A DNA stretch of 57,298 bases, counting the filler, from Sphacelaria rigidula (taxonomy: Eukaryota), in NCBI GenBank assembly GCA_964200075.2. It is 5 parts of 5 records of this genome, joined end to end, with 100 filler letters (N's around TTAATTAATTAA, not from the genome) between each part and the next. Parts side by side here need not be neighbours in the genome. Positions count along the whole stretch, not along the records: positions 34,443 to 45,821 come from CAXNAA020004998.1; 4 more parts are not named here. One strand, given 5' to 3'. Under the pieces are notes generated by a model. It did no database searches. It was not told where the DNA came from and saw only the letters and a program-made list of their open reading frames with translations. Every line of letters begins with the position of its first letter. Position 1 is the first letter of the stretch. A program made the position numbers and the translations under genes. Shown here in pieces: positions 11,382 through 45,921 of this stretch.

Positions 11382-11481
11382 NNNNNNNNNNNNNNNNNNN
11401 NNNNNNNNNNNNNNNNNNNNNNNNNTTAATTAATTAANNNNNNNNNNNNNNNNNNNNNNNNNNNNNNNNNNNNNNNNNNNN
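11382..11481. other. Artificial contig linker (N44-TTAATTAATTAA-N44)
   Basis: 100-bp spacer with stops in all six frames; the same linker occurs four times at ~11.48-kb spacing. Confidence 0.99.
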
Positions 11482-22862: not shown

Positions 22863-22962
22863 NNNNNNNNNNNNNNNNNNNNNNNNNNNNNNNNNNNNNN
22901 NNNNNNTTAATTAATTAANNNNNNNNNNNNNNNNNNNNNNNNNNNNNNNNNNNNNNNNNNNN
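22863..22962. other. Artificial contig linker
   Basis: N44-TTAATTAATTAA-N44. Confidence 0.99.
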
Positions 22963-28849: not shown

Positions 28850-29800
28850 TTAACGCAAGCAGTAGATGGCGAGGGTAGGTCATCTGCTGAATCGCCATCT
28901 AACTCACTTGAAAAAGTATGGATGATCCAGGTGAACTACCCTCGCGGTCTAAAGATCAGGAGCGTCAAGAAGGACGTAGTGATCTTCAGGGGCACGGGCA
29001 GGTATTCCCAATCCGAACACACCATACGACCCTATTGAAGGACATGTGGGCCAAAACTCTGGAAAAGGTACGCCCACACCACGTTGATAAGTTTCAGCAA
29101 GTAGTGTGCCCCGATTGTTTGCTACCGCATCGTACCGTCTTCAGCAGTTGTCTGTAGTTCGACAGCGACCAGCACCTGACGACAGTCCCAAATAAATGCT
29201 GCTGTTACAGAATTCGTTGTTGAAAGTTGCACAATGGATCACCTCTTTACGAGCTTGCAACGAGCTATCCGTGACAGAATGATGCTGTGCACGAAAGCGA
29301 CACGTGAGCTTGCTTGTGCGGGAACATCGTACATGATAGATTGACATCGTGCTATGATCTCGACGCACGAAAATGTGCGTACAGTAGTGCTCACTTTCGT
29401 TCGATCATGGATGGTTGTGTCCAAACATTTGTCCGCTTGACGTGCAAAGTAAACATTTTGGCCCGTGTTTTCGATGCCTTCCTGCTCAATCAGTGGCACA
29501 CAAGTCTAGGGTCCGAAGCTCAGAGTGATACATCGTTGCGACCCCATTCAGAAACGAATATACCGAAACACGCGCGAAAGAAGTAGGGTATCTGTGAAAG
29601 AACCACGCACTGCATGCGTGGCGGCGCACTCTTGCACTTGAGAGAGAAGTCTCATCACCCAAACTGAAGTATACCGATTTACCACCTGAATTGCCGTATT
29701 ATTTCATTGGGCGATGTAGTTGTGGACGGATAGCGGCAATATCCGTTGTTGTTCATGTACTACACCGCGGACCTCGTATCCACCCCCTTGCCCTACCCAC

Positions 29801-29950
29801 CTGACTGTCACTGAAGCGTAGAGTACGGATGCATTCGCCGGTCGGCGGTTCCCAGAAATGGATGTTGTGGTCGTAACCTGCAGTGGCCAGTATCACAGCA
29901 TTGCGTCGATCTACCTGACGATCCACCTGCGCAGCATTGCCTTTGTCCAT
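29801..29950 (-). CDS. LST8: Target of rapamycin complex subunit LST8 (WD40), exon 1; rest of gene not found in this contig
   Basis: [69 protein letters not shown]...G.C.RT....DSQ is the characteristic LST8 N-terminus; 150 bp, phase 0 donor. Confidence 0.92.
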
Positions 29951-32900
29951 GTTGCCAATGCCTCAAACTATTGTGACGGTGTTGACAAGCAGAGAACACT
30001 GTTGATCCGCCAACCACGTCCTGCAACGAGTCAACAAAAGACGCACGTGTTCTTTCTGTAATGACCCGCGGATGTGCGGCGACCACGTGGTTTATTCTCC
30101 TAGGTGGAAAAGATCCGACACGAAGATCTCGTCGAAACGTCGGGACCTGTTCAACAACAGGGTCTCCGGGACGGTTTCAAGGTTGCTACAGGATATTTGT
30201 GTCTTCGTTTGTCCGGGAGTTTTTCAAAATTCTACCTACTTACGGTGGTACTGGACTGTTGTGTAATGGAACATCATACAGGAACAGTTATTCGTACAAA
30301 CCTCAGTCAGGTCCCAACTGTTGTAGTAGCGTCTGTTTCTGGCAAAAATGGAAATCGTAAATGTTACTGTTTATCTATCGAACCCATCGATTGACCATGG
30401 GAAAACTGCCGGCACTTCATGTCTCCTCTCGGTGTGACATGATCTGATCGATTTGATGTCGCATATCATGCCCTTTCCTCGGCGTCAATTGCTCTGATTA
30501 GCTCAATTTGTCGCACATCCATCCCTATTCGCTACTTTATTGTGGTCGGCGACAGAAAACAGCTGTGTGTGGTTGATGTCAACGACAGGCGATATTCCAT
30601 GAACAGGCGACTACGCCATACGTCCACGTCGAATGACTTCAGTTAATCTGTGCGACATGGATGAAATTTTCGGTACACTTTTCCCCTCTGGGTGATGAAG
30701 ATAGTAGCAGTTTCCAACCATGTACCACTGACGTGGTCGAGACGGACGAAGCATGTCCTACAGTTGTACTGTTGTACGAGGATTAGACAACAGTATCACC
30801 GTAACGGAACGTTAGTGCCGACGTTCGTGGTTGGTACCACTGATGGTGTTCATCTCACCGCATCTGAGGTCGTGTCTTGTCGGGCTGAAAAAGCAGCAAG
30901 GACGAAAGGAAGCGGTATTCAACAGCAGCGTGTTGCCGCGTCATCGCTGCGTGATGTTGCGGCGACCAGTTAGCGTGAGACGTGTCGACGCTTGCTTCAC
31001 TCTTCGCTGTTTGAACCCTTGGACCGCGGTGCGGGTAGCTCATATAGATCACAGCTTTAATCACACATATTGTTTTCAAGTGAATACTGATGCCGATTCA
31101 GCACCTGAGCTGATCTCCTCGTGGTCAAAAAGTCAAGTGTACGACCATCGTTGTTTCGCCATTATTGGAACAATGAGAATGAGCGGTGGAATCGTAAAAA
31201 TTTAGTCTGATGTGTCGATGCAATCCGTGTTCCTATAATTGCTTTCCTCGTTTCTGCACAAAAAGTCCAACGATTATGATTTGCCACCGACGGAAACGTG
31301 TGCTCGGTACTTCAACGCATACCCCGAAACCTGCAGATACAGATCAGGAGATACTCAGACTCGACGCCTGACACCTTCAGATCGAGTCACAGTCCAGCGT
31401 AGTATACGACGCATTTTTAAAGGTGACTTTGGTGAGATATTGGCCGAGCAGCAGGCAGCTGTGTTAACGATAGTCACAAATATTCTTGGTAAAAAGCGTC
31501 GGTTTGCAGTGACGCGTTTGTACTAGAACAGACAACGCTGGTTCAGCTGTAACCTATTGACACAAAAAGATCAGGAATTCGATGGGCTAATTGAGAACAA
31601 CTAACTGCGGTCTGAGCTATCGGGCGCTGCATCAAGCGCAGTATATCTCGTGATGACCTTGTGAACAACTTTGTTGGGATAGGGATTCCTGTTGCCCTTG
31701 GTTGATAATGTTACCCGTATATTCTCGCTGGATACTTGCAAATTCGCTCGGACCAAAACCGCGAAAACAAAATAATTGGCGCCGAATCAGTTCCGCCGCA
31801 TATTCATCCGGGTTGGCCCAAATTTTTTTTGATCAAGATACTCCCTCTCAGATCATCGTATCTTGCTCTTAACGATTATACACTTCTAATTTAAAGTTTT
31901 CTTCAAGCGACCATCCATCATCCGTGCATCGGCAAATTTGACCGAAGTAGCAATCGAATTTCGCGAAACTCACCCAAAGTAAAAATTGTTTTATAGTAGC
32001 TGACACCCCATGTTGTCGGCTATTGTGCGTGTACGCCGTTAGTACAACTTGTGAGCAGAACGATCGATACAATGCCGGCCGACAGCATCATGTGATAGAC
32101 AGCCACCGCAGATACGCAACACTTTCGCTGGCATATTCAAATTTGCGCGCATCCCTCCTGTACCAGAGTAAATGATCCGGATTTTTCGGCTGTTTCGCCA
32201 ACAGTAACGAACGTTATCGAACCGCAGTAACGAAGGCGGCTCGGGAAGGCGGGACTAGAGGGAGGGCACACCAACAACAGGTTTTTGAAACGCGCACACA
32301 GATGCATACCCACGCACACAAATATACAAGATAGGAATGCACAACCAAGCATGCAATGTACAGCAGAGCAGCAGCAATAGCAGCAGCACGTAATCTTGGT
32401 GCAGTAGGTGTGCCTGCAAAGATCTACCGAGTATCTGATGCCTCGATAGCATTACAGTATCATACTTGCTGCACATTTCCAAACTGGAGTAGTAGTGCCT
32501 CCAACGCGACTATCTCGAAAACAACCGTGCTTCTGGGGGGGGAAATGCGCAAGATTCGCCACAACAATAGTACATAACACTAGTATAGTGCCGCACACAC
32601 CGTATGTTTGCTTTCTCGGGAGGGGGTGGTTTCACCGCAAAATCAAGCGCAACGAGCCACAGACATTGCTGTTGCACTGTTTTATCCTGACTGCTGCAAT
32701 TCATTCCATTATTGTCGTATTCAAAAGGATACCACGATACTACATACTGCTATTGCCCAAGATCACGATCACCTGAAGTGGATAAAGTCTGTTCGAAAAC
32801 TTGGGGGAAACACGGAGCATCGTTACAGATGAAAGAGGTAAGAAACGCAAAAATACGAAACACAAGAGCACGAAACACACGGCGCGCAGCATTACCGATG

Positions 32901-34342
32901 GCCTCTGCGCAAAAAACAAGCACCGTGTATGTCTCCAACCTGATGACGTACTCTACAGATTGCCGTGCTGCATGACTACGATAGACGCTTGTACATTCAG
33001 TTGGAACAAATCCTTCCGAATGACGATTCGGACTACAGGGAGAAAATTCACTGACCACAATTTCCCGCCCTTGCTTTCACGTAACGACAAGCGCGTATAA
33101 ATGTCCGCTGCGCAGCTGTCTTGGCTCTCCTTTCTAGGGAAGTGGTTCGTTCGCGCGCGAAGGTAGCTAGGAAGTGATGATACCGCGCTATTTCGCTCAG
33201 GACGGGACTGCAGGTAACCCTTCTATCGCCTGGCGGGGAATTGACGTGCAGATTAATTATATACCCGAAAATATAGGAAGACTGTTGCATCGAAGTTTTG
33301 TGGGGGGAAATTGTGTTCGAAGAGATACTGGATACTGGATTAGAGTACGAACTCTAAACGGACAGGTGTGAGATTTGAGATCTGAGATTTGAGATCGAAA
33401 AGTAGGCCCTTTTACGAGCTGCCGCTGTTCTACGTACTGTTGTCGCGTTCTGACTCGCGCGCTGTTGCGTTGTTCCACTCTAGTGTGGTACTGTTGCACC
33501 ACCATGGACATGCATTGTGTTATCTGACTGCACTCATATTATTCACTGTATACATGTATAGCACGTGCTGCCGGCAACAATTATGCCTGCTTGCCTGCAG
33601 ATTCTATGGAATATGGTGAACGTGTTCACCAATAGTCGCGGTAGAATCTAGATGACGACTGAATCAAAAACATATGCGACTATGGTCGCCTGTACGTATG
33701 ACTAGCGAGTGAAAAAATCCGACGACCGTACGCAGTCGCCTGCGGAAACGACTAGTGGGGGCGGGTGTATTAACGGGTGCTATAGTGACGGGTCTATTTT
33801 CTCATGAATCTCCGAGTTGAAAATAAACCCGTTTTCTCCGAAAATTTTAAAGAGAGCGGATTTCGTGAACAGGTCAGAGAACAGATCAATCCAAGACGGA
33901 AAAAAATAGACTTCTTCGAAAAACCCAGCATCCGATTTCCCCCCCGACGTCTCCCATCTTTTTCTTTGAACATGTCGGGAGCGAAATTCAATTGTCGAAA
34001 AAAAAAAGAATCGTCTCGTTAATGAAACCCCCGACTAGCCCATCCCGCCCCCATCCCCTCCCCGATTTCTCCGATATTGTCGGACAGTTCCTTCTTTCTC
34101 CGAACAGTACGAGAGCAGGCTTCATTGGCAGTTCAGGCGATAGATCGATTCAACACTTGGACGGCGAGTGTGTGCAGGTCATGTTTTGAACCAGCATCAA
34201 TTCCCCTTGGAAAATGTACGCATGCTCCAGGTGGGCTACCCTCGCAGTGTATAATGGTTGACCTCAGACCGCGAGGGCAGTCCAGCTTGAAACAGCCGAT
34301 CATCTATGTTGAGGATGGTCCTTTTCATTGAGGATGAGAACC

Positions 34343-34442
34343 NNNNNNNNNNNNNNNNNNNNNNNNNNNNNNNNNNNNNNNNNNNNTTAATTAATTAANN
34401 NNNNNNNNNNNNNNNNNNNNNNNNNNNNNNNNNNNNNNNNNN
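34343..34442. other. Artificial contig linker
   Basis: N44-TTAATTAATTAA-N44. Confidence 0.99.
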
Positions 34443-34996
34443 TCGAAAGGGAAGCGTGGTCAATGGTCAAATGACTAAGGCAAGCAACAAATGAGTACGC
34501 CCCCCCCCCCCCACGCGCGCCTATAGTAATGCGTGGTCAATGGTCAAAAGACTAAGGTAAGCAACAAATGAGTACCCCCCCGATGACTCCTGACAGCGTT
34601 CAACATTGAAGCAGAACAGCAAAAAGACGTATCTACGCGTACAGCATACTGTGCGCTTTCGGGAAGGGCTAAATTCATTGGGGGGGATTTGTCGACGGCA
34701 TATTTGTCATGGAAGTTCATATATCAGAATATCTCCATACAACCAAGAGCGGTTTGACTCCTTAACCTTCTACTGATCGGTGCCCTGTGCAATAAGCCGA
34801 GTTTCAGGTCTAGCCTCCAGTATTGCTCTTGCTTACTGCGCTGCAGTTCTGTAGTCCAGGCATTTGTGTGTGAATCACAACTGACGCCCATGTCTTCGAC
34901 TCGAAAGCGAGCTCATGCGGTAGGAAAATTCAGACGGAATTGCTCGGCACCCCGATCCTTTATACGAGGGGACGGCGCCGGGTCTGTGATACGTAC

Positions 34997-35085
34997 TTGC
35001 GGTGATTGGCGAGGTGCGCGCTTTGGTTGGCCGCTTGTTGATCGAGAAGCAGCAGAGTAAGCTCGGTTGATCGTCGCGTAGCTTC
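34997..35085 (-). CDS. Gene A exon 8 (coiled coil); no later exon or stop found before the contig end
   Basis: CTAAT branch point, CAG|EATRRSTELTLLLLDQQAANQSAHLANHR(K)|GTACGT; phase 0/2. Confidence 0.6.
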
Positions 35086-36169
35086 CTGTCATATTAGCCG
35101 GAGTTATGACGCGATACATGGAGAAATTCATCAGATGTTGTATTTTTTGTCAATATGACAAGTGCCGATGAACGTTCGCGCGGGAGGCGCCCATACCGAA
35201 GACACATTCAACGTAAAATCATGTATCTGCATGTCACTGGAGTCTGGGTGAGGAGTGTTTGTGACTCAGGATCCCACTGTTGGGCACTCTTCGCGAAGTG
35301 TGATTGGAGTGTGAGATAGTAATCATTGTCCCCGATAAAGAGAGAGAGACAGGGGGTAAAGCAAAATTTTATAATGTCAAGTGCACTTTACGCACAAATA
35401 GTGCAGCAATTGCCAGGTAGACGAATGTTAATCGGAAAAAATATCAGTGGTGTATATCGAAAACCATGGTGTACACAACGGTCAAAGCATAGGTGGAAGA
35501 ACGTTCGAACAGAAGAACGAGTAATATACCCCAGGCAAGATGTAGGCAAAGACTGACTGTAGGAAGAACACCCCATGACGTTCGATCAAAATCAAGGCCG
35601 TGAGTTCAACCATCGACGGTGGTCACCATACGAGAACCGCGTGACTCCGTTCGGTTTTGAAAAGCAAAGTACACAGCGAAGGTGTGTCCCGACAATGAAG
35701 GCCGCCTGATTTTTCATTCGACTGGGTATCGCGAATCGGACTAAGACAGGCCGAGATCCCGTAGAAATGCCTCAGGGCTTGAAGAAAAACGTTCCAGACG
35801 CGCCTTTGTAGTGTATCCACTACACTCCGTTCCGAAGGTAACGTGCGCCATGTTCGTGGAGACACTTTCAAGCCTCGGACGATATGATCTCTTGTCTTTC
35901 CGGAGTTCCGCAAGTGACCATACAAAGTGATCCTACCATGTAATCCAACTGGGGAAGCGGGGAAGGGGCGCCCAATCGTACGACACGACGTGCTTCGTTC
36001 ATGTGCTACACGACTTCAAACGGTCGTTTTGCGCGTGTATGTGGATACTTGAATTGTCAAGCGTCGTGATTGCTCGTCTTCTACTGACACCAAAAGTGAA
36101 TATTTCTGCTTGAAGCGGCACTTTGAAGTGGCTGACTTCACCGACTTCTTCGTGCAAGAAGTGACTGAA

Positions 36170-36234
36170 CCCCCCCCCCCCCCCCCCACCCCCCCCCGGC
36201 CCCCCCCCTCCCCCGCCCCCCCCCCCCCCCCCCC
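36170..36234. repeat. Poly-C tract
   Basis: Near-homopolymer in a gene A intron. Confidence 0.95.
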
Positions 36235-37022
36235 GCTTCCATTTTGAAGTCACGGCTGCTTTATCGCAGTGCATGATGAGTCCCAAAGTTTGTTGAAAAT
36301 CGGTGGTGTCAACAAAGCCGGCGGAAAATTGGCCGTTTTGGCCGTTTTCCAAATTATCCGGCGGAAGAGTGAAAACTTCTCAACATGACCAAGATGGGCC
36401 AACTTTAAACTCACGTTTGCCATGCGGCACATGTTAAAAACAGATATCTCAACAGTTTATACTAACGCACAAGAACTGAGCGTTTGTGAGATTCTTTGTT
36501 AGCCAGTACCTCAGTCTCCACCGCGGTCACGCGACAGTGCACCCAACTCCATGTATTGAGCAAAATTCTGCACATACGGCGCTAACTAGTATCAAACATG
36601 TGCCACAGGCCGTGCGAGTCTCGTTCGTGGTTTTGATAGAATAGGTGAGACACTGGCTTGGAGGCAAGCAAACGCTGGGATCATCCTAATATTTTTTGGC
36701 TCAACTAGCAATCTCAGATTCACCCCGGGAGCATAGCAGATATCCCGCCTAAAAATGCCATTGTTCCCAAATGCGTCTACTTCAAGGCTACGGTATTCCT
36801 GCAGAAGGCTATCGAAATAATGAGTTTCCAGATTAAACAAAATTCCCACAAAAATCGCTTTCGAATGATCCCATTGAAATTTTCACGAATCGCCCTAAGA
36901 ATCACAGATATGAGCAAGCGATCGTATCGCACTTTACTCGTCGGACCGAGAAATATTCATATATTTACACAGGTATGTAAGTATTTACGAATCGCACAAC
37001 GACCAAAACTGAAAATGGTCAC

Positions 37023-37145
37023 CTCTTCTTTGTCCCGCTCGAATACTTCCCGATATTCAATCTCCAGAGCATGCACAGTCAGGTTGAGATGCTCCTCACT
37101 ACGTGCCCTTGCCAGTTCCAGCTCCCTCTCGCTTGTGGCCAACGT
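37023..37145 (-). CDS. Gene A exon 7 (coiled coil)
   Basis: TAG|TLATSERELELARARSEEHLNLTVHALEIEYREVFERDKEE|GTGACC; phase 0/0. Confidence 0.7.
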
Positions 37146-37893
37146 CTAACGGGGGTAGTTCCGCAAAGGAGTCTATCTAAGACGTCACGTGCAGAGGTTT
37201 CTTTATTCGGGTCAACACCTGGTCAACGTCTGCTTAGAATCAGAAACTGCAGCTCACATTCTAACTGCTCGTTTGTCCGATTTGAGAGGGTTTGCATTCC
37301 GTCGCTTCACCCTATGAAAATCAATCTCGAAGATACGGCAGATGTACGGAGAGGAAGGTTGACAAGCAGTTTACTCTCGCTCCTGTCACACAGTCATGAC
37401 ATTATACACCGGTTCTCCGGGGAAATCCGGGAAACGCGACCGATGGTATCGTAGTGTTCAGTGTTATGAACGATCGTCTAAACGATACACCGGAATGGTA
37501 TTTCAACCACCTCGGGGTATATTCCATTTTTTGTGATATTGTGACACTTTCTACGATAGCCCCCCCCCAAAACCAGCCAAAAGTGTCACAAAACAAATGA
37601 GCATACAGCGCCTGATGTTTGGGTTCAGGCTGCATGGAGCACCTCATATTGGCTCAACACTGGCTAGAACGAACCCAACCGTGAAAATCCCCAGCTGCTC
37701 GTTGTGTTCGGCTTTTCCCATTTCGATTTGCGTGAAGATTTTGCCTCCCGCACCATGCACTTTCTTGGGGGAGCTATCGTAGAAAGTGTCTTGTACTCAC
37801 ACTTTTGCCCATGAAATATACACAACCATCGTTGGAAATATACAGAACCATCGTTGGAACGGCACAGCTAATCACGGTCAAAATGTTCATCAC

Positions 37894-37962
37894 CTGGTTG
37901 TGCCTGAACTGCAGCGACCTCCGGCGCTCTTGCCCTACTGTTTTCTCGAATGCAATCATTGT
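37894..37962 (-). CDS. Gene A exon 6
   Basis: CAG|TMIAFEKTVGQERRRSLQFRHNQ|GTGATG; phase 0/0. Confidence 0.6.
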
Positions 37963-38393
37963 CTGGTCGTGTGTTTGTTCAACAGACACAAACCACGCGG
38001 AAAGTGGGGTAGTTCGTTGACAGCCAGTTGCACCGGGCGGATGCACACTACAAGGAACTCCATACACCTGGTGCACGGTACTCGCAGTTGAAGTATGATT
38101 GGTGAGAATGAACGCTTTGATCAAGACATCAAGACAGAAAAATATTGTCGATTGATCGTGACGCACACACCACCTATTGGCCGCCATTATAGCGATGCGG
38201 TTTTCGACATGAATCGCGTGGGTGAACAGATGTCCACGTCCACCGGTTCATTTACATAAGGCTCTGTACAAAACATGAAATACCATTCGGTTGATGATTA
38301 TCAACCTTCGTCAGGATGGCCTACCTGCCGAATGTTCCATATTCGTTGGAAAGTACAAGAACATACGTTACAGGGTACAGCACCCCTACCCAC

Positions 38394-38503
38394 CGCCATA
38401 ATGTCACGTTCGAGTTCTGAAACTGCTGCTAAATCCCGCAGGCGAGCGGCAGGTTGCCACTCCATTCCTTGTCTTTCCATCAGTCTCGTCATTTTAGATA
38501 AGG
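38394..38503 (-). CDS. Gene A exon 5 (helical)
   Basis: Long pyrimidine tract, CAG|(A)LSKMTRLMERQGMEWQPAARLRDLAAVSELERDIMA|GTGGGT; phase 1/0. Confidence 0.72.
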
Positions 38504-39375
38504 CTGCCGGACAGCGTCAAAAAGAGCAAAGACGACGACGATGAAAAAGAGAAAACCATTACTGCCTGAGGCGGACCTTGATTGTGTCGAGTACGCTGTC
38601 TTGGTGAACCCTGACGCGTGCCACACTGCGTGTATCTGTGCTCCAGCTATGAAATCAACCAAGTACCCATATTTCGCGTATTTGGAGCTCTTACAATGAA
38701 TCAATGAAAAACTTTCATCCCCAAAAGTTGTATATAGCAATAGGAACATGCGAATTTGTAAACGAGGAGGTAGGGAGTTTTTTACCCCAACAGAAACGCG
38801 AGATTTTCTGCGGACTGAACGGACGTGTGTGGCGAAAAATTCGTGCTAACACTCTATCGTAAAATCGTGTCCTTATTAATCGGCTTGCGAGTCGTTTGGC
38901 ACCCCGTGTTTCTCTCGATGGCTGTGGTGCTTACTAGCGACAGAGTTGTGCGTGTCGTTGGGAATAGTTTGGCGGAGACGTGCCGGCTAGTGTGGTGAGT
39001 TTGAGCCGTGCTCACCCAGATGCATTGCGTTCTCAATACGTCTACACCGCTGGTACAACATCAATTGGGGGTTGAGAGATTGTGCTCGTTATGCCAGGGC
39101 ATCAAGTGCGTTCTCGATGCCGCGAACGGACGCATAGCGACCTTTACAGCGGCACACGGCAGAGTCTCATGTGAAGAGGCTATTGCCCCAGCTACAAGAG
39201 TCAAACTGCATGAGATAGAGGTGATCGCCCGGCCATAACATGACAGTTACTGTACAAAAGTGAAGGAAGCACTGGGTTCGGCATCAAAACTGTGACGACC
39301 ATGACAGACATTTAAACTGATTCCGAGGCTTTCCCTTTCAATAGATTCAGGTCAGTCCTTCCGCGATGTGCTCAC

Positions 39376-39442
39376 CGTCTCCAGATTTCGCTCCCAGGTT
39401 GAAGACACTGTTCTCTAGTCCGTTGAGTCTCCTAGCCAGCTC
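39376..39442 (-). CDS. Gene A exon 4: ICA terminal helix / coiled coil
   Basis: CAG|ELARRLNGLENSVFNLGAKSGD|GTGAGC; phase 0/1; TQ-ELARRLNGLE matches the end of ICA domains. Confidence 0.75.
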
Positions 39443-39926
39443 CTGGCGATTATGACGTGGTATATTCCATGGTGAGTAACAATGATGGTCTAAGTTCAAA
39501 CGGATTGCACCTCCAGCAGAGTATAGTACCTGAAATATAGGCATGCGAAACACATGGAGTTCGCTGATGCTTGATAAAATCTAAATTGAGAGTCAACCTG
39601 TTGATACTGCTGCTTCTGAGGTACGTTTGGAGGGCTTATCAAGATGCTGGATTGCTCTTTTGGCACCTGTCATCAAAGTGATTCCCCCGTTCAGAGATGC
39701 CGACAGCAAACATTTCTGCTCGGAAGCCCTCCAGTAGCAGTCCCTGACATCCTGCCCAGTCGACTTTCGAACAGTCAGCGTTGCTCGCACGAAAACATTG
39801 CTAGCTACAGTACAGGTATGGAAACAAACAGAACACCCAGCTGACACCACCCGCAACAGAATGAGGTTGAGGCTCAGACATTACAACCGTTTGCTAGCAT
39901 ATTCGCGTCGTTGAATGCGCACCTAC

Positions 39927-40139
39927 CTGCGTCACAGTAACTGTGTGACTGAACAGATACGTCCAATCTACATTCGGAACACCATCCACTTTGGTGCGAG
40001 AACCATTCGGCAGTGTCACCGGAAGGGTAAACGTCGAGAACGCTTCGGGTATGAGGGTTGCCACGTCCGGAGGTAAGACGCCCAGCCGGCGCCGACCTTC
40101 TCGCTTGTCGTACATGAATGTGTAGTAGCTTAATCGGGC
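39927..40139 (-). CDS. Gene A exon 3: core of Peptidase S74/ICA-like (MYRF-type) domain
   Basis: CAG|ARLSYYTFMYDKREGRRRLGVLPPDVATLIPEAFSTFTLPVTLPNGSRTKVDGVPNVDWTYLFSHTVTVTQ|GTAGGT; resembles the MYRF GVIAQEV..ILPEAV...NG......V....IF...V..V.EL pattern; phase 0/0. Confidence 0.8.
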
Positions 40140-40656
40140 CTGTTGTTCGCGTTTTATCGAGAAAAGAGGAAGAGAAACCGATAAGAATCAAGTGGCGCGT
40201 GTGATTCTCACACGCGCTAATTGAATGACCATTTGGCTGGCGATCTTGGTGACATCCGAGTAGGTTTCCATCGTCGGTTGTTGGCACAGCAGTACTTTGC
40301 TTTCGAGTCCAGCGCGATGAATACACCGGTACAGAATAGTGCTCGACTCTTAGTTGCACATGATGTGTCGCTCCGTGTCTAATTTGAGAGAGTGCAGAGA
40401 TTCACGACCGAGCGTATATCCTCACCATCATGGAATGTATTCCAGCCACGGTATTGTCCTTCGAAAAGGATCGACATACGAGCAAGTTAATGGTCTCACG
40501 CTCGATCGGCATTCCGAATCCGTATAATCTACGGTCATTCTCAGTCGGGTTCTTTCCATACAGACACGACGAAGTAACGTGTATGCAATACCTAACACAG
40601 GCCGGCAGGTTGTGCACATGCACATTGAAGCCTTGGATAAGACCCGCAGTACGCAC

Positions 40657-40736
40657 CTGGCGCAGCACATCCCAACTAGTAACCGGGTCTGCTTCAGTGA
40701 GCACCTCGTATGCTCCCCACGGATCCACTGAATGGC
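40657..40736 (-). CDS. Gene A exon 2: start of Peptidase S74/ICA-like domain
   Basis: CAG|(S)HSVDPWGAYEVLTEADPVTSWDVLRQ|GTGCGT; phase 1/0. Confidence 0.7.
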
Positions 40737-41139
40737 CTGTGAAGGAGCCGTACGTTTTCGTAGGTCACGGAGTACAGTACCGCCAAGGGTTGCTTGTTTC
40801 GGTAAGGATTCGCTGGATGCTACGGTGGTCACGCCACTAAATATAGCGTCGTCGAGCAGATTCCATGGAGATCTTGTAATGAACGACGCATAACGAGAGT
40901 GCCTGGACTACTTCCTCGGTCACCTACCGCGCTCGTTAGAATAACCTTCGTCGCTCTCTCATGGAGATCGAGCGAGTGAGACATGACGATCTCTTCTACC
41001 GGTCGGATACAGTGAAAGATCAAGATACATCGGCGTTAATGTTTGGGTTTCGAACAGAATTTGGCTCTGCATAATTACTTTTGAACATGAAGGCTTAGCA
41101 TAGCTGTGGGCATGTATACTCTAGTCATCATCATCTCAC

Positions 41140-41761
41140 TTTCTGTTTTTTCGCTGCCGGTGTGTTCCATGTCAGACCTGAGACCTGTAGCATGACGCCC
41201 ACTCTCGTGGTCATCGCCATCAATCTCCGCGCTATCCCCGTCACCCCCGCCTCCGTCACGCTGATCCTGGTGAAATCCACCATCATCACCCGTGGTTTGG
41301 CAGTCCGACGAGGATGTTGCGGTTGCTGAAGAGGGTTCGCCTTTCACTCCACTGCCGTGTGTAGCAGCGCATGTATTGCCAAGTGATGGTCGGTGTTGAG
41401 CGGGCACAGGTGTTGTTGGGTCCTGTCTTCTGCCCACGGTCTTGATGGTGCTGGTGCTGGAACTGTTCAGCAACCTGTGTCCTCTTTCTTCCCCAGCATC
41501 TACGACATTTGTTCCGTGGCCCTCAACTGCAGCTTGGGGTGGTTCTGGTATAATCTCAGATGTGCGCTCGCGGTATCCTTTTGAAGAAGCGTTGGCTGCA
41601 GCTCGGGGGAGGATATTTCTTGTGTTTGCGGTACTATTGTCCGAGGTTGCCGAAAAACTAATGTTATACTCGTCGACAGCTTGGGTCGCGCAGAGTATGA
41701 TAAACGCCGGTAGCGCGGTGAACAAGCTCCGAAATATTGGCGATGAGGCTAAGATTGACAT
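41140..41761 (-). CDS. Gene A exon 1: predicted signal peptide plus low-complexity region
   Basis: MSILASSPIFRSLFTALPAFIILCATQA|VDEY hydrophobic leader; several N-X-S/T sequons; donor A|GTGAGA (phase 1) matches the next exon. Confidence 0.65.
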
Positions 41762-42119
41762 TATTTCGTTCACCACCTTATCTCTGGCACGGCCGAGCCT
41801 GGCTCGTATGGAAGAGGATGTACGTGATGAACTTTGAGCAAGACGCAAAACCAAACAAACGCGGAGCAATTCCTGTCCGATGACTTCTGATGAAGGATTG
41901 GGCTATGTCACGTTCCCCAACACCCCCTTCCAAACAACGGCAACGATAGCACACCAACAGCGACACTACAACGAGGGATGGTAACTTCAGTAAGTTCATC
42001 GAATAAACTCACGCTATGTAATTTCCGCATGAATCTGAGATCAGATTTCACAAGCGAGAGATATGTATTACTCTCGCTCGAACGGTTCACAATTTGAAAC
42101 GGTCAATGCATCGCAAAAT

Positions 42120-42170
42120 AACGCGGCACAAATGATTTTCTCAGGGGAAACGCGGCACAAATGATTTTCT
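42120..42170. promoter_or_regulatory. 22-bp direct repeat in the divergent intergenic spacer
   Basis: AACGCGGCACAAATGATTTTCT at 42120-42141 and 42149-42170, between the head-to-head ATGs at 41761 and 42275; regulatory role is inferred. Confidence 0.4.
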
Positions 42171-42274
42171 AGCTCACGTCCACGATCTCCAATACGTGCA
42201 TACCGTCTGTGGTAGTGAGCACAGGAGAGAAGATCGGTAGCTAGAATAGGCCTAATGTTACCACGGATTCACAT

Positions 42275-43408
42275 ATGACTTTAACCTTCACATTCACATC
42301 GCGGCGGTGGGTTTGGGTCGCCGTACTACGTGTTTCCGTCGCTTCGATTGCGACCTTCCCTGGCGGCTTCGGCGTGGAAGCCATCACCAGTGGCACCGGT
42401 GGTTCATCGGGCACATGCATCACCACCCCCGCCACACCCACACCCACCACCTGTTCCGACTCCTCGACATCCAGCACTAAACCGTCGATTGTCTCGTCAT
42501 CCGATTCAAAAGGAGTGACGATCACCGAGACGTCGCCACAGCAATGCCAGCAAGTAGTGGCAGAACATGCAGGACAACCTTACCACTCCAAGTCCGTTGT
42601 CGACGACGATAGTAATCAGCCAGAGGGCTGTTCGTTATTGCCATCCAAAATCGACACCCCGCCTCACAGGAGTAGGTCTTTCACAGGTCTTGCAGATGAC
42701 ATTGGTGATGATCTGACGGCGCTTGGTGACCGCGTAGGCGATGCGCTGCGGCAGGCAGATAATGATGACAACGCGCAAGTCGCTCCTTGTGAAGGTGGGA
42801 CCTGCTCAGGAGCTGAACGGGTCAGGGTTGAGGAAGAGTGTATCAGGTCGACAGACGAAGCTGAAGAAAAGTGTAATGATGAGAGTGATGAAGAAAGTAA
42901 TGGAAAGAGTGATGATGATGGTGGTGATGGTGATGATGGTGATGAAAGTGATGATAGTGACGATGATGATGATGGTGATCGCGAGGATAGCGGTGAGAAC
43001 ACCTCTTCAACAGGGGAGAGTACAACTGACCACCAACTTGCAACTATCGAGTGCACGGGCAAAGACGATGACAGCACCGAAAATGATTATTTCAGCCAAG
43101 GAGAAAATACCGTCTTGTCGAGAGGGAAACAACATCATCTCCCATTGTCTATGCCCGACGAATTCAGTCTCAACACGCAAGATCGTGTCGTCGATGGCAG
43201 TAGTGACCGTATCATCACTGCCATAAAAGAGTCAGAGGAGCAAGAAACGGGAGGCATCATTGTGTGCGGCGAAGGTGGGGAACACCAGAAGGTGTGCAGC
43301 AAGGGACAAGTGTGCTGCAACCACAGCTGTGGAATATGTGTCCCGCGAGGCCAAACATGCCTAGAGATCGCTTGTGGAGGAGTCACACAAAGAAGCGGTC
43401 CGACAAGG
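42275..43408 (+). CDS. Gene B exon 1: probable secreted protein with Ser/Thr-rich and Asp/Glu-rich regions and a Cys-rich module
   Basis: 378 codons; hydrophobic leader RRWVWVAVLRVSVASIATF; acidic DDG tract; CGEGGEHQKVCSKGQVCCNHSCGICVPRGQTCLEIAC; donor AGG|GTGCGT, phase 0. Confidence 0.75.
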
Positions 43409-43612
43409 GTGCGTGTGATATGGTGTACGCGCAAATACAAATAGCCCAGTCCCAGAACCTACGTAGCGCAACGCGAGTAGGTGGAACAGATGCTAAGTAA
43501 ATCATAGCTAATGCCACCGAATAGCAATCATTTTTCTCAATTGCTGCATGACGTTTATCGTCGTGGATAACGCTGTTCGCAACCTTCCTCCCTTCTCTAA
43601 TGCACTTCTTAG

Positions 43613-43783
43613 GCGAACGACTCTCCTACGGGTATTCGCGCTTTGCGAAATAATGTGGTGGTCCTCTCGCTGAGCACAAATCCTTCATTGCCGCCGAAGG
43701 ACAGACTGAACCAACTCAGGGTTCAGCAGCCAGAACTCTTTACCCATGTCAGCACCAAAGGTTTCAAGCGGTTGCTTTCTCAG
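43613..43783 (+). CDS. Gene B exon 2
   Basis: CTAAT branch point, TAG|ANDSPTGIRALRNNVVVLSL...KGFKRLLSQ|GTAACA; phase 0/0. Confidence 0.7.
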
Positions 43784-44333
43784 GTAACAGCACACGGACA
43801 GGGTACGGGTTTTGTTGTGCGCATAAGACAGCCGGATGAGGTGTCTTCCCGTCTATCTATATGCAACGTAAAACTGTTCGCAGCAGTGGGATTAGGATGA
43901 TGTGCAGGTGTTGGAGAAAGCGGTGTTGAGAACGCAATGATGTCTTTCGCTGTTGACTTCTTACTAACATTCATTCGTCTGTGCGGTTTCCACCGTGGCC
44001 CATGCCACCGATGTGTAGCGCTATTTGTAACTCGTTCTCTCTAGACGGCAACTGTTTGAATTTGCATGCCTAAAGCTTTATGTCGGCACATCGTATGATC
44101 ACTGGATTCTTGCCATCTGCCGAGCTCTCCTGTGTTCCCCACACACACCGCGAACCCATGCATATTCGCTATGTTTTATATACATTATCGTAGCCCCCAT
44201 TTGCACTTGTAGAAGCGCTCTGACACCACACTGGTGCCGGTAGACATTGTGTCATTCTCCGAGCTACCCAGTATCTGATACCCTGCATCACTTCACTGCC
44301 CCCCTTGACGGCCGCTATAACAATGTATCGCAG

Positions 44334-44663
44334 GTGCTAGCAGTTCCCGACACAGCAAGCGCAGCAGCACCATTATCTCGGAAGCGTGCTACCGCCATCA
44401 CACCGAAAATCTCGTATAATCGAGCAAAGCTCCGACCGAAAGCCGGTTCACCTGCAGTAAGCACTCCCAGTAGAGGCAAGGTAAATGCGGGTGTCGTCGC
44501 TGCAGCAGAATGGGGGACAAATTCACGTCCACCGGTGGGGTCTAGTGAAGAAGGGGGGAGGCGGCGTGGGGGGGGAAGCAATGAGCGACACATGGGGCAG
44601 TCCATCACGGGACTGGCGGATGTCGATGTTGAGTCCACGATGCAAGGTCTACTCGATAGAGAG
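44334..44663 (+). CDS. Gene B exon 3; later exons not identified
   Basis: CAG|VLAVPDTASAAAP...DVESTMQGLLDRE|GTACGT; 330 bp, phase 0/0. Confidence 0.65.
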
Positions 44664-45821
44664 GTACGTGATGAGGTGTTGAAGGCCGAAGGGATATGGG
44701 TGATGAGATCAGACATACACCATTGTCATTTCGAGTTGTTATCGGCAAGGTGTAAAAGCGTAGCTCCACTTCCTCACATTTTTGGCTTGATTCATGTGGG
44801 AAGTAAATTTTTGTGAGGTATGGAAACTGTCAGCTCCATATCGTAGCATCACGTACACCTGTTAGGGTGGGCTGGAGATGACGGGTTTAATGTCGGAGTT
44901 CAATTCGGTTGGGAGCGTACACCGTGTATGCGTACCCCATACATCAAATCATTGTTGACGCCATCAGGTGTCGGCGGAAATGCAAGAGGAAAGTGATCGG
45001 CTGGGACGAAAGCGAGCAGACGCCGTGCGGTCTGCGATGGGACACCTGTGGGTTGGTTACACGGAGCACGCGTGGGGGAATGACGAGGCGAGATAGAGCA
45101 ACAACCATTCATCTGTCTCATGGCAGACGGATTCGTTTCCCTTGTCCAGATGAAACGGCGTCCATTCGCTTGCGCGTTTTTGGATGTAGAAAGAGCGCTT
45201 AACGCAAGTATACCCGCTCTTTACCGGTCAGAACATTTTAGTCACGCACGGGTAGGGCGTGTGCGAGTTACCGCGAACGCTCTTGTGTTGTGTGCTGGTC
45301 CTCCTCCCAAGGCGGCGATCTGCGGAGTAAAAAGATATATTGCCAGGAAGACCACCGCAGTAGAAGCGATATTACACATGTGTATGGGGCGAGTATTTGA
45401 TCAAAGCGCGAGAGATGCTCCGAAAACATACAGCAGTATGTGTTGTTGCTATCGGGCTCGTGTGCTCGTTCGACGATGAAAGCCACGAAAAGAAACGAAA
45501 TTCGACGTCGCACACACCGCCGCGGTCTATCTGGTACAGTGTATGGAACCAATTTGATCGGCAGAACCCCGTCCAAATCGCCCCAGATGCATTTGGGCTT
45601 ATTACTTAGAAGTGTCTGACTCCCTCCGTTCAAAATGTGAAGGCGGGAGTAGCACAAGGATTCAGTTACTTTGACGAGTGCCGATGTCGTGCGGGAGCGC
45701 CGATCCAATCCGCGATACCAAATGTGAAGCGTGTACCGGGGGAGGCACGGACTTATCCCTTCAGGTCGCGGGCTCACGCTAAGAGGGGGGGGGGGGGGTA
45801 ATCATGATCATGCATGCCGTA

Positions 45822-45921
45822 NNNNNNNNNNNNNNNNNNNNNNNNNNNNNNNNNNNNNNNNNNNNTTAATTAATTAANNNNNNNNNNNNNNNNNNNNNNN
45901 NNNNNNNNNNNNNNNNNNNNN
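45822..45921. other. Artificial contig linker
   Basis: N44-TTAATTAATTAA-N44. Confidence 0.99.

What the first reader, a model, noticed from the sequence alone, without database searches (positions are those of the whole stretch)
34997..41761. Unannotated multi-exon gene: signal peptide, MYRF/phage-tail-like intramolecular chaperone (S74/ICA) domain, long coiled coil
Seen: eight minus-strand exons with canonical AG/GT sites and matching phases splice into one open frame that the ORF track shows only as scraps. The frame has a hydrophobic leader, a disordered linker, then EADPVTSWDVLRQARLSYYTFMYD...RLGVLPPDVATLIPEAF...LPNG..VDGVPNVDWTYLFSHTVTVTQELARRLNGLE, then over 130 aa of E/R/L-rich helix, with many N-glycosylation sequons. 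Known: this motif order matches the ICA (Peptidase S74) domain, which trimerises and self-cleaves phage tailspikes and the ER-bound transcription factor MYRF. Inference: this is a secretory-pathway trimeric protein using a phage-type chaperone without MYRF's Ndt80 DNA-binding domain. The missing C-terminus could carry a further domain, for example an ATAD3-like AAA ATPase.
Basis: partly seen in the sequence, partly recalled or inferred. Interest (0 to 1): 0.8.

Follow-up and report, generated by a model that had tools for sequence, protein, structure and literature searches.

The report
Phage-type cap on algal ATAD3-like ATPase
This is the front half of a brown-alga gene for a membrane ATPase related to ATAD3, and its outer tip is a trimer-forming domain of the kind otherwise known from phage tail spikes and the animal factor MYRF, here without the residues needed for self-cutting.

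Summary
Eight minus-strand exons (41761..34997), all with GT..AG introns and matching phases, give 457 codons with no stop.

A profile built only from 100 distant relatives aligns to residues 211-449, across six exon junctions, with E 1.4e-28.

The ICA reading is supported at family level:
- A profile of the domain hits the solved MyRF ICA domain (E 3.8e-12) and the phage T5 tail-fibre chaperone.
- A model of the closest orthologue finds only ICA structures at the top.
- A homotrimer is predicted (0.75 against 0.01 for controls).

The catalytic Ser-Lys pair is missing throughout the family, so self-cleavage is unlikely.

The helix that follows is an ATAD3_N-like coiled coil. Full-length orthologues continue into a membrane helix and an AAA ATPase.

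That half is absent from the window. The window appears to be five size-sorted contigs joined by N44-TTAATTAATTAA-N44 spacers, and the gene runs off a contig end at 34443.

105 of 106 stramenopile ATAD3-like proteins tested carry this domain. My library searches found no paper describing the fusion.

The parts
41140..41761 (-). Exon 1. It holds the first in-frame ATG (41761), a hydrophobic signal-peptide-like leader (about aa 1-27), and then about 180 aa of acidic, Ser/Thr/Gly-rich linker with 4 N-x-S/T sequons. Donor GTGAGA, phase 1.
   Evidence: There is no ATG upstream in the open frame 41075..41902. The leader's layout resembles that of P0003 and P0005. No Pfam family was found.
40657..40736 (-). 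Exon 2. It encodes the N-terminal strand and helix of the ICA-like domain, including the position that aligns with the MyRF catalytic Lys (a Tyr here).
   Evidence: tblastn to P0003, P0004 and P0005 gives E 5e-6 to 9e-7.
39927..40139 (-). Exon 3. It encodes the core of the ICA-like domain: two beta-hairpins and a short helix, including the aromatic pair that aligns with MyRF Y615/Y617.
   Evidence: Four proteins match at E 6.7e-30 to 7.2e-26. tblastn gives 7e-30. An X5 contig lies on 39983..40133.
39376..39442 (-). Exon 4. It starts the long helix that leaves the ICA-like domain. The junction TVTQ|EL restores the family consensus Q-E-L.
   Evidence: The X5 contig of 151 nt lies on 39376..39441 with its middle 66 letters. 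The HMM alignment runs through this exon.
38394..38503 (-). Exon 5, coiled coil.
   Evidence: tblastn E 5e-8. Model.
37894..37962 (-). Exon 6, coiled coil.
   Evidence: Weak tblastn match to P0005 (E 0.14), but in register. Sites read.
37023..37145 (-). Exon 7, coiled coil.
   Evidence: tblastn E 0.05 to 0.18. Sites read.
34997..35085 (-). Exon 8, ATAD3_N-like coiled coil. It ends in phase 2 at the donor GTACGT, so the gene continues.
   Evidence: tblastn E 1e-4 to 3e-4. Model.
34443..34996 (-). Start of intron 8, running into the end of the sequence piece. The last 140 nt (34454-34581) are copies of a high-copy 77-nt repeat.
   Evidence: No further exon was found here or anywhere else in the window.
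34343..34442 (.). Artificial spacer N44-TTAATTAATTAA-N44. It is one of four that cut the window into pieces of 11381, 11381, 11380, 11379 and 11377 nt.
   Evidence: N coordinates. Spacer sequence.

Best explanation
The locus holds exons 1-8, the 5' half, of a brown-alga gene for a single-pass membrane AAA+ ATPase of the ATAD3 kind. I call this divergent lineage 'type B'.

Layout of the full protein, as seen in the orthologue P0115:
1. a signal-peptide-like leader;
2. a disordered acidic linker carrying sequons;
3. an ICA-like domain (Peptidase_S74 + MYRF_ICA fold);
4. about 250 aa of ATAD3_N-like coiled coil;
5. one membrane helix;
6. a K-P-x-L-V-R-E motif;
7. an AAA ATPase with Walker A and Walker B motifs.

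Shown: the exon structure, the homology, the ICA fold and the absence of the Ser-Lys dyad.

Inferred mechanism. The ICA-like domain no longer cuts. It serves as a permanent trimeric cap. Three N-terminal strands thread the beta-hairpin ring, and the three exit helices start a three-stranded coiled coil. That coil forms the stalk on the non-cytosolic side of the membrane. The AAA rings sit on the other side, presumably as a hexamer carrying two such trimeric stalks. The machine would then act like ATAD3, as an ATP-driven membrane tether or organiser.

Location (my commitment, about 0.55). The leader and the excess of partly conserved sequons place the stalk in the ER or secretory lumen, as a type I membrane protein.

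Why the 3' half is missing. The membrane helix and the AAA part are absent from the window because the window is a chain of separate, size-sorted contigs, and this gene runs off the end of its contig inside intron 8.
For: Exon model.

Independent homology: the type-A HMM aligns to aa 211-449, E 1.4e-28.

ICA-like domain:
- The profile of alignment A1 hits 7dc3_A (MyRF ICA) at E 3.8e-12 over profile positions 13-118, and 8hqz_d (T5 L-shaped tail fibre) at 1.7e-6.
- In the AF2 model of P0004 the mean pLDDT is 80.9, and the 10-residue blocks from 21 to 90 average 90-93.
- Its best Foldseek matches are 7dc3 chains (E 5e-6 to 1.1e-5, prob 1.00), then 3gw6, 4uw8 and 3gud.
- The Atlas structure search of P0006 residues 1-140 gives S74 clusters and a diatom ATAD3_N+AAA cluster, with TM 0.64-0.71 by query.
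- Of 29 relatives scanned against Pfam, 11 show Peptidase_S74 or MYRF_ICA at E<=0.01, and 3 of these are above the curated cut-off. 24 show ATAD3_N and 20 show AAA.

Trimer: ipSAE 0.75 against a best of 0.01 in 3 controls. The runs agree in at least 78% of contacts and the partner's pLDDT is at least 76. The mark was reached by 21 of 30 solved one-chain pairs and by 0 of 23 solved single chains. Solved ICA trimers exist, so this pass may come from the model's memory.

Dyad: MyRF S587 and K592 are indispensable for cleavage (passages of PMC8326128; PMC3742443). The alignment places MyRF E593 at profile position 13. At the K592 position, 167 of the 190 sequences have a residue: Y 118, L 28, F 13, I 5, W 1, H 1, K 1. 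The commonest residues at the S587 position are D, Q, N and E, and Ser is not among the seven commonest. The aromatic positions that align with Y615 and Y617 are kept (Y 142/F 38, and F 129/Y 18/L 18).

Orthologue architecture: P0115 (Pylaiella littoralis, 929 aa) has the ICA-like domain at 193-307 and AAA at 620-768. P0088 joins the end of P0004 to an AAA domain.

Window lacks the 3' half: tblastn and a six-frame HMM search find nothing beyond family-HMM position about 300.

Composite window: spacers and non-increasing piece lengths. Independent contigs of DNA run X1 also stop near both ends of the piece. One starts at 34552. Another reaches 45812 by my arithmetic from its record positions, and the piece ends at 45821.

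Sequons: 8 against 3.0 +/- 1.6.
Against: - The window's own exons and its two nearest orthologues give no Pfam S74 or ICA hit on their own. In those orthologues ATAD3_N stays under the cut-off (13.0 and 20.9 bits against 25). The assignment therefore rests on family profiles and a model.
- The fold model is of orthologue P0004, not of the window's protein. P0004 is 70% identical over exon 3. Pylaiella P0115, the most identical row in the tree, is 53% identical to the window model over 252 columns.
- The positions upstream of profile position 13 were mapped by counting back from the aligned block, where many sequences have gaps. 79 of 190 are gapped at the S587 position.
- No run on record as RNA holds the locus, and the E1/E2 junction is unsupported.
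- ATAD3 proper is mitochondrial (my recollection, not from a call), which argues against a secretory location.
- A trimeric cap on a hexameric AAA ring is my inference only.
- That the spacers mark contig joins is inferred from their form and from the piece lengths. It is not documented.
Confidence: 0.78

Rival explanations
1. The domain is a working S74-type autoprotease. As in MYRF or phage tailspikes, trimerisation would trigger self-cleavage and release the N-terminal acidic region.
For: Fold and profile similarity to self-cleaving ICA domains. The aromatic residues around the MyRF cleavage channel are conserved. 9 of 162 family members have some S-x4-K string in the 30 residues upstream.
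Against: At the position aligned with the essential Lys, only 1 of 167 residues is K. Ser is not among the seven commonest residues at the nucleophile position. The window protein has no Lys within the 20 residues before the domain. The 9 S-x4-K strings sit at inconsistent places. In most relatives only a leader and 20-40 residues lie upstream, so there is nothing to release.
Confidence: 0.08
2. The gene is really truncated after exon 8 in this genome, as a pseudogene or a shortened secreted coiled-coil protein, and is not cut by a contig end.
For: No downstream exon exists anywhere in 57 kb. Reading through the exon 8 donor reaches a stop after 12 codons (my reading).
Against: Exon 8 ends at a good GTACGT donor in phase 2. 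The piece ends 554 nt further on, in a high-copy repeat, next to an artificial six-frame-stop spacer. The four spacers cut the window into pieces of non-increasing, near-equal length, as neighbours in a size-sorted contig file would be. Orthologues are full length.
Confidence: 0.1
3. The molecule is the same, but it is mitochondrial like animal ATAD3. The N-terminal hydrophobic stretch would be an outer-membrane anchor or an uncleaved import signal. The ICA cap and coiled coil would span the intermembrane space, with the AAA ring in the matrix.
For: The type-A relatives carry strong ATAD3_N and AAA matches, for example 134.9-139 bits in the oomycete proteins P0118 and P0117, and sources name several of them ATAD3A/B. 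The window's lineage is a paralogue of these.
Against: The leader looks like a classical signal peptide, with a short polar start, a hydrophobic core and a small-residue site, in the window and in relatives (my reading, since no predictor was available). There is a sequon excess, and two coil sequons are shared with P0003. Type B is fast-evolving and may have changed compartment.
Confidence: 0.3
4. The similarity to ICA is a chance or compositional match, or the locus is an integrated viral tail-fibre-like gene.
For: Single-sequence searches with exon 3 or P0003 against solved structures find nothing meaningful.
Against: The profile E-value is 3.8e-12. The best Foldseek matches are all ICA structures. 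The gene has seven spliceosomal-type introns. It is conserved with the same architecture in oomycetes, chrysophytes, bolidophytes and brown algae.
Confidence: 0.02

Closest known systems
MYRF / MyRF ICA domain (PDB 7DC3; Pfam PF13884 + PF13887)
   Same: Same fold and same order of elements: helix, hairpin, helix, hairpin, long exit helix. A homotrimer is predicted. The aromatic residues of the central channel are conserved. It is part of a single-pass membrane protein.
   Different: There is no Ndt80 DNA-binding domain and no beta-helical stalk upstream. The Ser587/Lys592 equivalents are absent. The domain sits at the mature N-terminus, not between cargo and membrane anchor. It is followed by an ATAD3-type coil and an AAA ATPase in orthologues.
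Phage intramolecular chaperone domains (endosialidase 3GW6, T5 L-shaped tail fibre 4UW8/8HQZ, 3GUD)
   Same: Profile match to 8hqz_d at E 1.7e-6. Foldseek matches at E 0.013-0.087.
   Different: The phage domains are C-terminal. They fold a fibre and are then cut off by the Ser-Lys dyad. Here the domain is N-terminal, there is no fibre, and the dyad is missing.
ATAD3A/B (Pfam ATAD3_N PF12037 + AAA PF00004)
   Same: Orthologues have the coil, the membrane helix, the K-P-x-L-V-R-E motif and the AAA domain in the ATAD3 order. The window's coil aligns with the coil of type-A relatives.
   Different: ATAD3_N is under the Pfam cut-off in the window's lineage. There is a leader plus an ICA-like cap where the first ~50 positions of the Pfam ATAD3_N model would lie; relatives match that model only from about position 54 on. 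There is also a long disordered insert. I read a Ser at the place of the sensor-1 Asn in type B proteins; that motif name is recalled.
Stramenopile 'type A' ATAD3-like proteins (e.g. P0125 Ectocarpus sp. 6, P0181 Phytophthora infestans PITG_19005)
   Same: Same whole architecture, including the leader and the dyad-less ICA-like domain. 105 of 106 relatives tested have it.
   Different: It is a separate paralogue clade: SH-aLRT 100 for the brown-alga type B clade with the window, and 92 for its grouping with Chrysoparadoxa_1 and Phaeothamnion. Type B has longer branches, weaker ATAD3_N scores and, in brown algae, the N-terminal disordered insert.

Membership tests
ICA / Peptidase_S74 (+MYRF_ICA) | Sequence match to the Pfam models at the curated cut-off | tested here: inconclusive
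   Window exons: 0 families. P0003 and P0004: none. Among 29 relatives, 3 are above the cut-off (P0025 25.3 and P0072 28.1 against 22; P0059 MYRF_ICA 29.1 against 24.1) and 8 more are below it. Each model matches 6 of the 15 members of alignment A1 at E<=1.
ICA / Peptidase_S74 (+MYRF_ICA) | ICA fold | tested here: met
   Family profile against solved chains: 7dc3_A at 3.8e-12 and 8hqz_d at 1.7e-6. The best Foldseek matches of the orthologue's model are all ICA structures.
ICA / Peptidase_S74 (+MYRF_ICA) | Catalytic Ser-Lys dyad (MyRF S587/K592, endoNF S911/K916) | tested here: not met
   Lys position: Y 118, L 28, F 13, I 5, W 1, H 1, K 1 among the 167 residues there. Ser position: D, Q, N and E are commonest.
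ICA / Peptidase_S74 (+MYRF_ICA) | Homotrimer | tested here: inconclusive
   Predicted only: 0.75 against a best control of 0.01. The pass may come from memory of solved ICA trimers.
ICA / Peptidase_S74 (+MYRF_ICA) | Lies C-terminal to a fibre or beta-helix that it folds and is cut from | tested here: not met
   Only a leader, with or without a disordered linker, lies upstream. No family was found in exon 1.
MYRF | Ndt80/PhoG DNA-binding domain N-terminal of the ICA domain | tested here: not met
   No such hit in the window pieces or in any relative scanned.
ATAD3 | ATAD3_N coiled coil | tested here: inconclusive
   P0004 scores 20.9 bits and P0003 13.0 bits against a cut-off of 25. 24 of 29 relatives have it. 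The window's coil aligns to the type-A HMM.
ATAD3 | Membrane helix followed by an AAA ATPase domain | tested here: not met
   Absent from the whole window. Present in orthologues P0115 and P0088. The absence is explained by the end of the piece, so it bears on the window and not on the gene.
ATAD3 | Mitochondrial inner-membrane location | not testable with these tools
   No targeting predictor or localisation data were available.

The most novel reading that the evidence does not exclude
All stramenopile ATAD3-type ATPases, not just this gene, carry a catalytically dead phage-type ICA domain as a permanent trimeric cap on their coiled-coil stalk. That would be a second capture of the phage intramolecular chaperone by eukaryotes, independent of MYRF, reused as a structural trimeriser and not as a cleavage switch. 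It would imply that ATAD3 stalks are three-stranded. In the brown-alga type B paralogue the machine would have moved from mitochondria to the secretory pathway and gained a glycosylated disordered head.
Probability: 0.35. Interest if true: 0.75.

Novelty: new variant of a known kind. Interest (0 to 1): 0.62.

Why it matters
As far as I recall, the ICA domain is known in eukaryotic cellular proteins essentially from MYRF, where it acts as a trimerisation-triggered self-cleavage switch borrowed from phages. Here the same fold is fused to a quite different machine, an ATAD3-like membrane AAA+ ATPase, across oomycetes, chrysophytes, bolidophytes and brown algae. It has lost the cutting residues.

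This opens three lines of work:
- It provides a natural non-cleaving ICA for studying what the fold does besides cutting.
- It makes a testable statement about the oligomeric state of the poorly understood ATAD3 stalk.
- It gives a dated gene duplication (types A and B) with a possible change of compartment in the lineage leading to brown algae.

For annotation, it shows that several brown-alga gene models split this gene in two (P0003 or P0004 against P0088).

Tried and rejected
- Pfam on single exons gave nothing.
- phmmer of exon 3 and of P0003 against solved chains gave only chance-level hits: L,D-transpeptidase at E 0.077 and CNNM3 at 0.65.
- No whole genome is held for the window, so the contig with the 3' half could not be sought.
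- The look-up of sequencing runs listed no RNA holder.
- In the laid runs X5-X7 (kind guessed), the bins with E1, E2 and E7 had no cover. The bins spanning E6 showed only the intron-6 repeat or no cover. X6 and X7 covered only repeats. None of this says anything about expression.
- The splice joints of the gene were not among the joints the tool printed; it showed 15 and left 45 unshown.
- A search for the membrane helix and AAA part in the window by eye, by tblastn and by six-frame HMM was negative.
- Rfam on 29000-42500 gave no family.
- Cluster look-ups gave no organism for most environmental relatives.
- Literature searches:
  - 'ATAD3' with 'intramolecular chaperone' gave 0 papers.
  - 'ATAD3' with 'Peptidase_S74' gave 0 papers.
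  - 'ATAD3' with 'oomycete' gave 0 papers.
  - 'ATAD3' with 'MYRF' gave 6 papers that look like unrelated co-mentions, judged from titles and abstract starts.
  - Three looser searches listed nothing relevant, because their minimum-term setting let papers through without the key term.
  - In PMC13294678 I saw only the passages with 'ICA'. They concern MYRF-like factors and not AAA proteins.
- Rejected ideas: a MYRF-like transcription factor (no DNA-binding domain) and a viral insert (introns and wide conservation).

Full report
**What is in the sequence.**
The ORF track between 34997 and 41761 shows only scraps. Read on the minus strand, those scraps join into eight exons: E1 41761..41140, E2 40736..40657, E3 40139..39927, E4 39442..39376, E5 38503..38394, E6 37962..37894, E7 37145..37023 and E8 35085..34997.

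All seven acceptors end in AG and all eight donors start with GT. The phases fit, and the joined frame has 457 codons plus two bases with no stop.

The product starts with a hydrophobic leader. About 180 residues of acidic, Ser/Thr/Gly-rich sequence follow, then a conserved domain of about 100 residues (E2-E4), then 152 residues of helix-type sequence. It carries eight N-x-S/T sequons. Shuffles of the same composition give 3.0 +/- 1.6, and 0.55% of 2000 shuffles reach eight.

**Is the model more than chance?**
- Exon 3 alone finds four proteins at E 6.7e-30 to 7.2e-26, among them products of Ectocarpus fasciculatus (P0003, 629 aa) and Hapterophycus canaliculatus (P0004, 392 aa).
- tblastn of these proteins and of P0005 onto the window hits E2, E3, E5 and E8 clearly. 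It hits E6 and E7 weakly, but in order and in frame.
- A profile built only from 100 'type A' relatives (see below) aligns to residues 211-449 of the spliced product in one stretch that crosses six junctions (85.6 bits, E 1.4e-28).
- One 151-nt contig of run X5 lies with its middle 66 letters on exactly 39376..39441. That is exon 4 to within a base at both ends, and its flanks do not continue into the introns. Another X5 contig lies inside exon 3. The tool only guesses that X5 is RNA.
- E1 and the E1/E2 junction rest on the first ATG, the site quality and the phase alone.

**The ICA-like domain.**
Pfam finds nothing in the single exons, and nothing of the ICA kind in P0003 or P0004. A scan of 1.84 billion representatives with P0004 gave 96 proteins at E<=0.001.

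Pfam results for 29 of those proteins:
- 24 carry ATAD3_N and 20 carry AAA.
- 11 carry Peptidase_S74 or MYRF_ICA at E<=0.01.
- 3 of the 11 are above the curated cut-off.

I aligned the domain alone from 15 sequences, including the window's exon 3 (A1). Its profile hits the solved MyRF ICA domain 7dc3_A at E 3.8e-12 over nearly its whole length, and the phage T5 L-shaped tail-fibre chain 8hqz_d at 1.7e-6.

An AlphaFold2 model of P0004 with a 44-sequence alignment has mean pLDDT 80.9. The 10-residue blocks from 21 to 90 average 90-93, and the model shows helix, hairpin, helix, hairpin and a long exit helix. Its best Foldseek matches in the PDB are the three 7dc3 chains (E 5e-6 to 1.1e-5, probability 1.00), followed by chains of the endosialidase chaperone 3gw6, the T5 fibre chaperone 4uw8 and 3gud. 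Unrelated folds appear only from rank 14, at E 0.25 and above. The protein Atlas agrees for P0006 residues 1-140.

Three copies of P0004 residues 1-140 are predicted to form a trimer. The score is 0.75 and the best of three controls is 0.01. The runs agree in at least 78% of contacts, and the partner's pLDDT is at least 76. The mark was reached by 21 of 30 solved one-chain pairs and by 0 of 23 single chains. Because ICA trimers have been solved, this pass may reflect likeness to them and not independent support. The predicted interface uses the N-terminal strand (residues 9-16), both hairpins, and heptad-spaced positions along the exit helix.

**It is not a peptidase.**
In MyRF, S587 and K592 form the catalytic dyad, and neither can be replaced (passages of PMC8326128). 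The dyad is described as absolutely conserved in eukaryote, bacterial and phage ICA domains (passage of PMC3742443).

The landmarks R611-L612, Y615, Y617 and E620-F621 named in that paper fix the numbering of the 7dc3 chain in the alignment. Profile position 13 is E593, so position 12 is K592 and position 7 is S587.

I aligned 190 sequences to the profile: the 189 stored family members that match the ICA profile, plus the window's product.
- At the Lys position there are Y 118, L 28, F 13, I 5, W 1, H 1 and K 1, with 23 gaps. The window has Tyr.
- At the Ser position D, Q, N and E lead, Ser is not among the seven commonest residues, and 79 sequences are gapped.
- An S-x4-K string occurs somewhere in the 30 residues upstream in 9 of 162 sequences, at varying places.
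- The aromatic residues that line the MyRF cleavage channel are kept (Y 142/F 38, and F 129/Y 18/L 18).

In most relatives only a leader and 20-40 residues precede the domain, so there is no fibre to fold and nothing to release. My reading is that the fold survives as a permanent trimeric cap.

**What follows the domain.**
P0004 and P0003 match ATAD3_N below the cut-off, up to the last position of that model (20.9 and 13.0 bits against 25). They then show a hydrophobic helix and a K-P-R-L-[VI]-R-E motif.

P0088 (Ectocarpus sp. 12) overlaps the end of P0004 and continues into an AAA domain. P0115 (Pylaiella littoralis, 929 aa, from a 255-kb contig) has everything in one chain: the ICA-like domain at 193-307, the coil, the membrane helix and AAA at 620-768. 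By my reading it also has Walker A and Walker B motifs.

**Why the window lacks that half.**
Neither tblastn with P0088, P0005, P0006 and P0023 nor a six-frame search with the family HMM finds anything beyond HMM position about 300 anywhere in the 57 kb.

The N runs in the window are not ordinary gaps. Each is N44-TTAATTAATTAA-N44, a stop in all six frames. They lie at 11382, 22863, 34343 and 45822. The pieces between them measure 11381, 11381, 11380, 11379 and 11377 nt. That non-increasing series is what neighbours in a size-sorted contig file would give.

The gene's piece is 34443-45821. Exon 8 ends at a good phase-2 donor, and 554 nt further on the piece ends in copies of a 77-nt repeat of very high depth. 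Independent contigs of DNA run X1 also break at 34552 and, by my arithmetic from the record positions, at about 45812.

I conclude that the gene runs off its contig inside intron 8. This is an inference, not a documented fact. Sequence below 34343 (for instance a WD40-like exon at 29753-29962) is then not its genomic neighbour.

**The family.**
With P0032 (Chrysoparadoxa australica) as query, 2135 proteins pass E 1e-20, and the best 120 are listed. Named ones come from several groups:
- brown algae: Scytosiphon, Ectocarpus, Hapterophycus, Ascophyllum, Nemacystus;
- oomycetes: many Phytophthora, Pythium, Plasmopara, Aphanomyces, Thraustotheca;
- Tribonema, Triparma, Bolidomonas, Spumella, Mallomonas and Epipyxis.

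11 of the 120 listed proteins already carry a precomputed PF13884 or PF13887 beside PF12037 and PF00004. With my ICA profile, 105 of the 106 newly fetched proteins have the domain. The exception is a 474-aa Tribonema protein that covers only 71% of the query.

I built a tree of 29 rows with the quick IQ-TREE search (SH-aLRT support only, midpoint root for drawing only); the rows were hand-picked from about 230 stored proteins, and the window row fills 37% of the columns.
- The window's product is sister to the four Ectocarpales proteins of its kind (support 100), with at most 53% identity to them.
- This clade groups with one Chrysoparadoxa protein and the Phaeothamnion protein (support 92; that fork is drawn open).
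- A second set of brown-alga proteins, with strong ATAD3_N, groups with the other Chrysoparadoxa protein inside the remaining ochrophytes (support 98).

Brown algae therefore have two paralogues. Type A is conservative. Type B, the window's kind, evolves fast and has the disordered head. Hapterophycus has both (P0126 and P0004). Long branches and skewed composition affect several rows.

**How it most likely works.**
Shown: the exon structure, the fold, the loss of the dyad and the domain order in orthologues.

Inferred:
- Three chains are clamped at their N-termini by the ICA-like ring.
- The exit helices begin a three-stranded coil of about 250 residues on the non-cytosolic side of one membrane helix.
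- The AAA domains sit on the other side. If they form the usual hexamer, two trimeric stalks serve one ring.
- The function would resemble ATAD3, an ATP-driven membrane tether or organiser.

I place the stalk in the ER or secretory lumen (about 0.55). The leaders look like signal peptides, there is a sequon excess, and two coil sequons are shared with P0003. A mitochondrial location like that of animal ATAD3 remains a serious rival (0.3).

**Novelty.**
In a full-text library of about 8.4 million papers and preprints, no paper combines ATAD3 with 'intramolecular chaperone', 'Peptidase_S74' or 'oomycete'. The six papers that hold both ATAD3 and MYRF look unrelated, judged from titles and abstract starts. 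Subscription journals are not covered, and database pages (InterPro architectures) could not be checked.

The architecture is visible in precomputed Pfam hits for a minority of members. It is thus latent in databases, but I found no description of it. I rate it a new variant of a known kind.

Noticed in passing
window 11382-11481, 22863-22962, 34343-34442, 45822-45921: Four identical artificial spacers (N44-TTAATTAATTAA-N44) cut the window into pieces of 11381, 11381, 11380, 11379 and 11377 nt. The window looks like five neighbouring contigs of a size-sorted assembly, so features on different pieces are not genomic neighbours.
   Followed up: partly
window 34454-34581: Two copies, 94% alike, of a repeat with 77-nt spacing that ends in a C run, at the very end of the piece. 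Summed depth in DNA run X1 is about 2.2 million there, against about 70 for the flanking unique sequence. Many contigs join it to 37543.
   Followed up: partly
window about 37543-37810 (intron 6): A high-copy repeat lies inside intron 6. It is related to the element at 34454-34581, because contigs join the two places. The single-copy X1 contigs stop at 37566 and resume at 37810.
   Followed up: no
window 36150-36250 (intron 7): A long C/G homopolymer-rich stretch that reads as poly-Gly or poly-Pro in several frames. The read tool skipped 36160-36245 as a repeat.
   Followed up: no
window 29753-29962 (-), on a different piece: An open frame that starts with Met and reads like the first WD40 blades of an LST8-type protein. 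This is my recollection of that family and was not tested.
   Followed up: no
window 42245-43444 (+): A 399-codon open frame lies divergent from the gene's start. It is very acidic, with Asp/Ser/Gly runs and a Cys-rich end. It was not searched.
   Followed up: no
P0003, P0004, P0007, P0046, P0088 (brown-alga gene models): Public gene models of the orthologues look imperfect. The gene is split into an N-terminal and an AAA model. Some models read into the intron after exon 2 or exon 3. Extra residues at the exon 3/4 junction interrupt the family's Q-E-L consensus.
   Followed up: partly
P0115, P0006, P0088 against P0023, P0118 (AAA part, not in the window): Type B proteins read T-S-R-P where type A reads T-N-R-P, at what I recall as the sensor-1 position. 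Walker A is G-A-P-G-S-G-K-S in the brown-alga type B proteins P0115 and P0088. It is G-P-P-G-T-G-K-S in P0006 and G-P-P-G-T-G-K-T in type A.
   Followed up: no
P0114 (Aphanomyces astaci, 596 aa): A gene model joins the ICA-like and ATAD3_N parts to PI3/PI4-kinase and FATC domains. This is probably a fused gene model.
   Followed up: no
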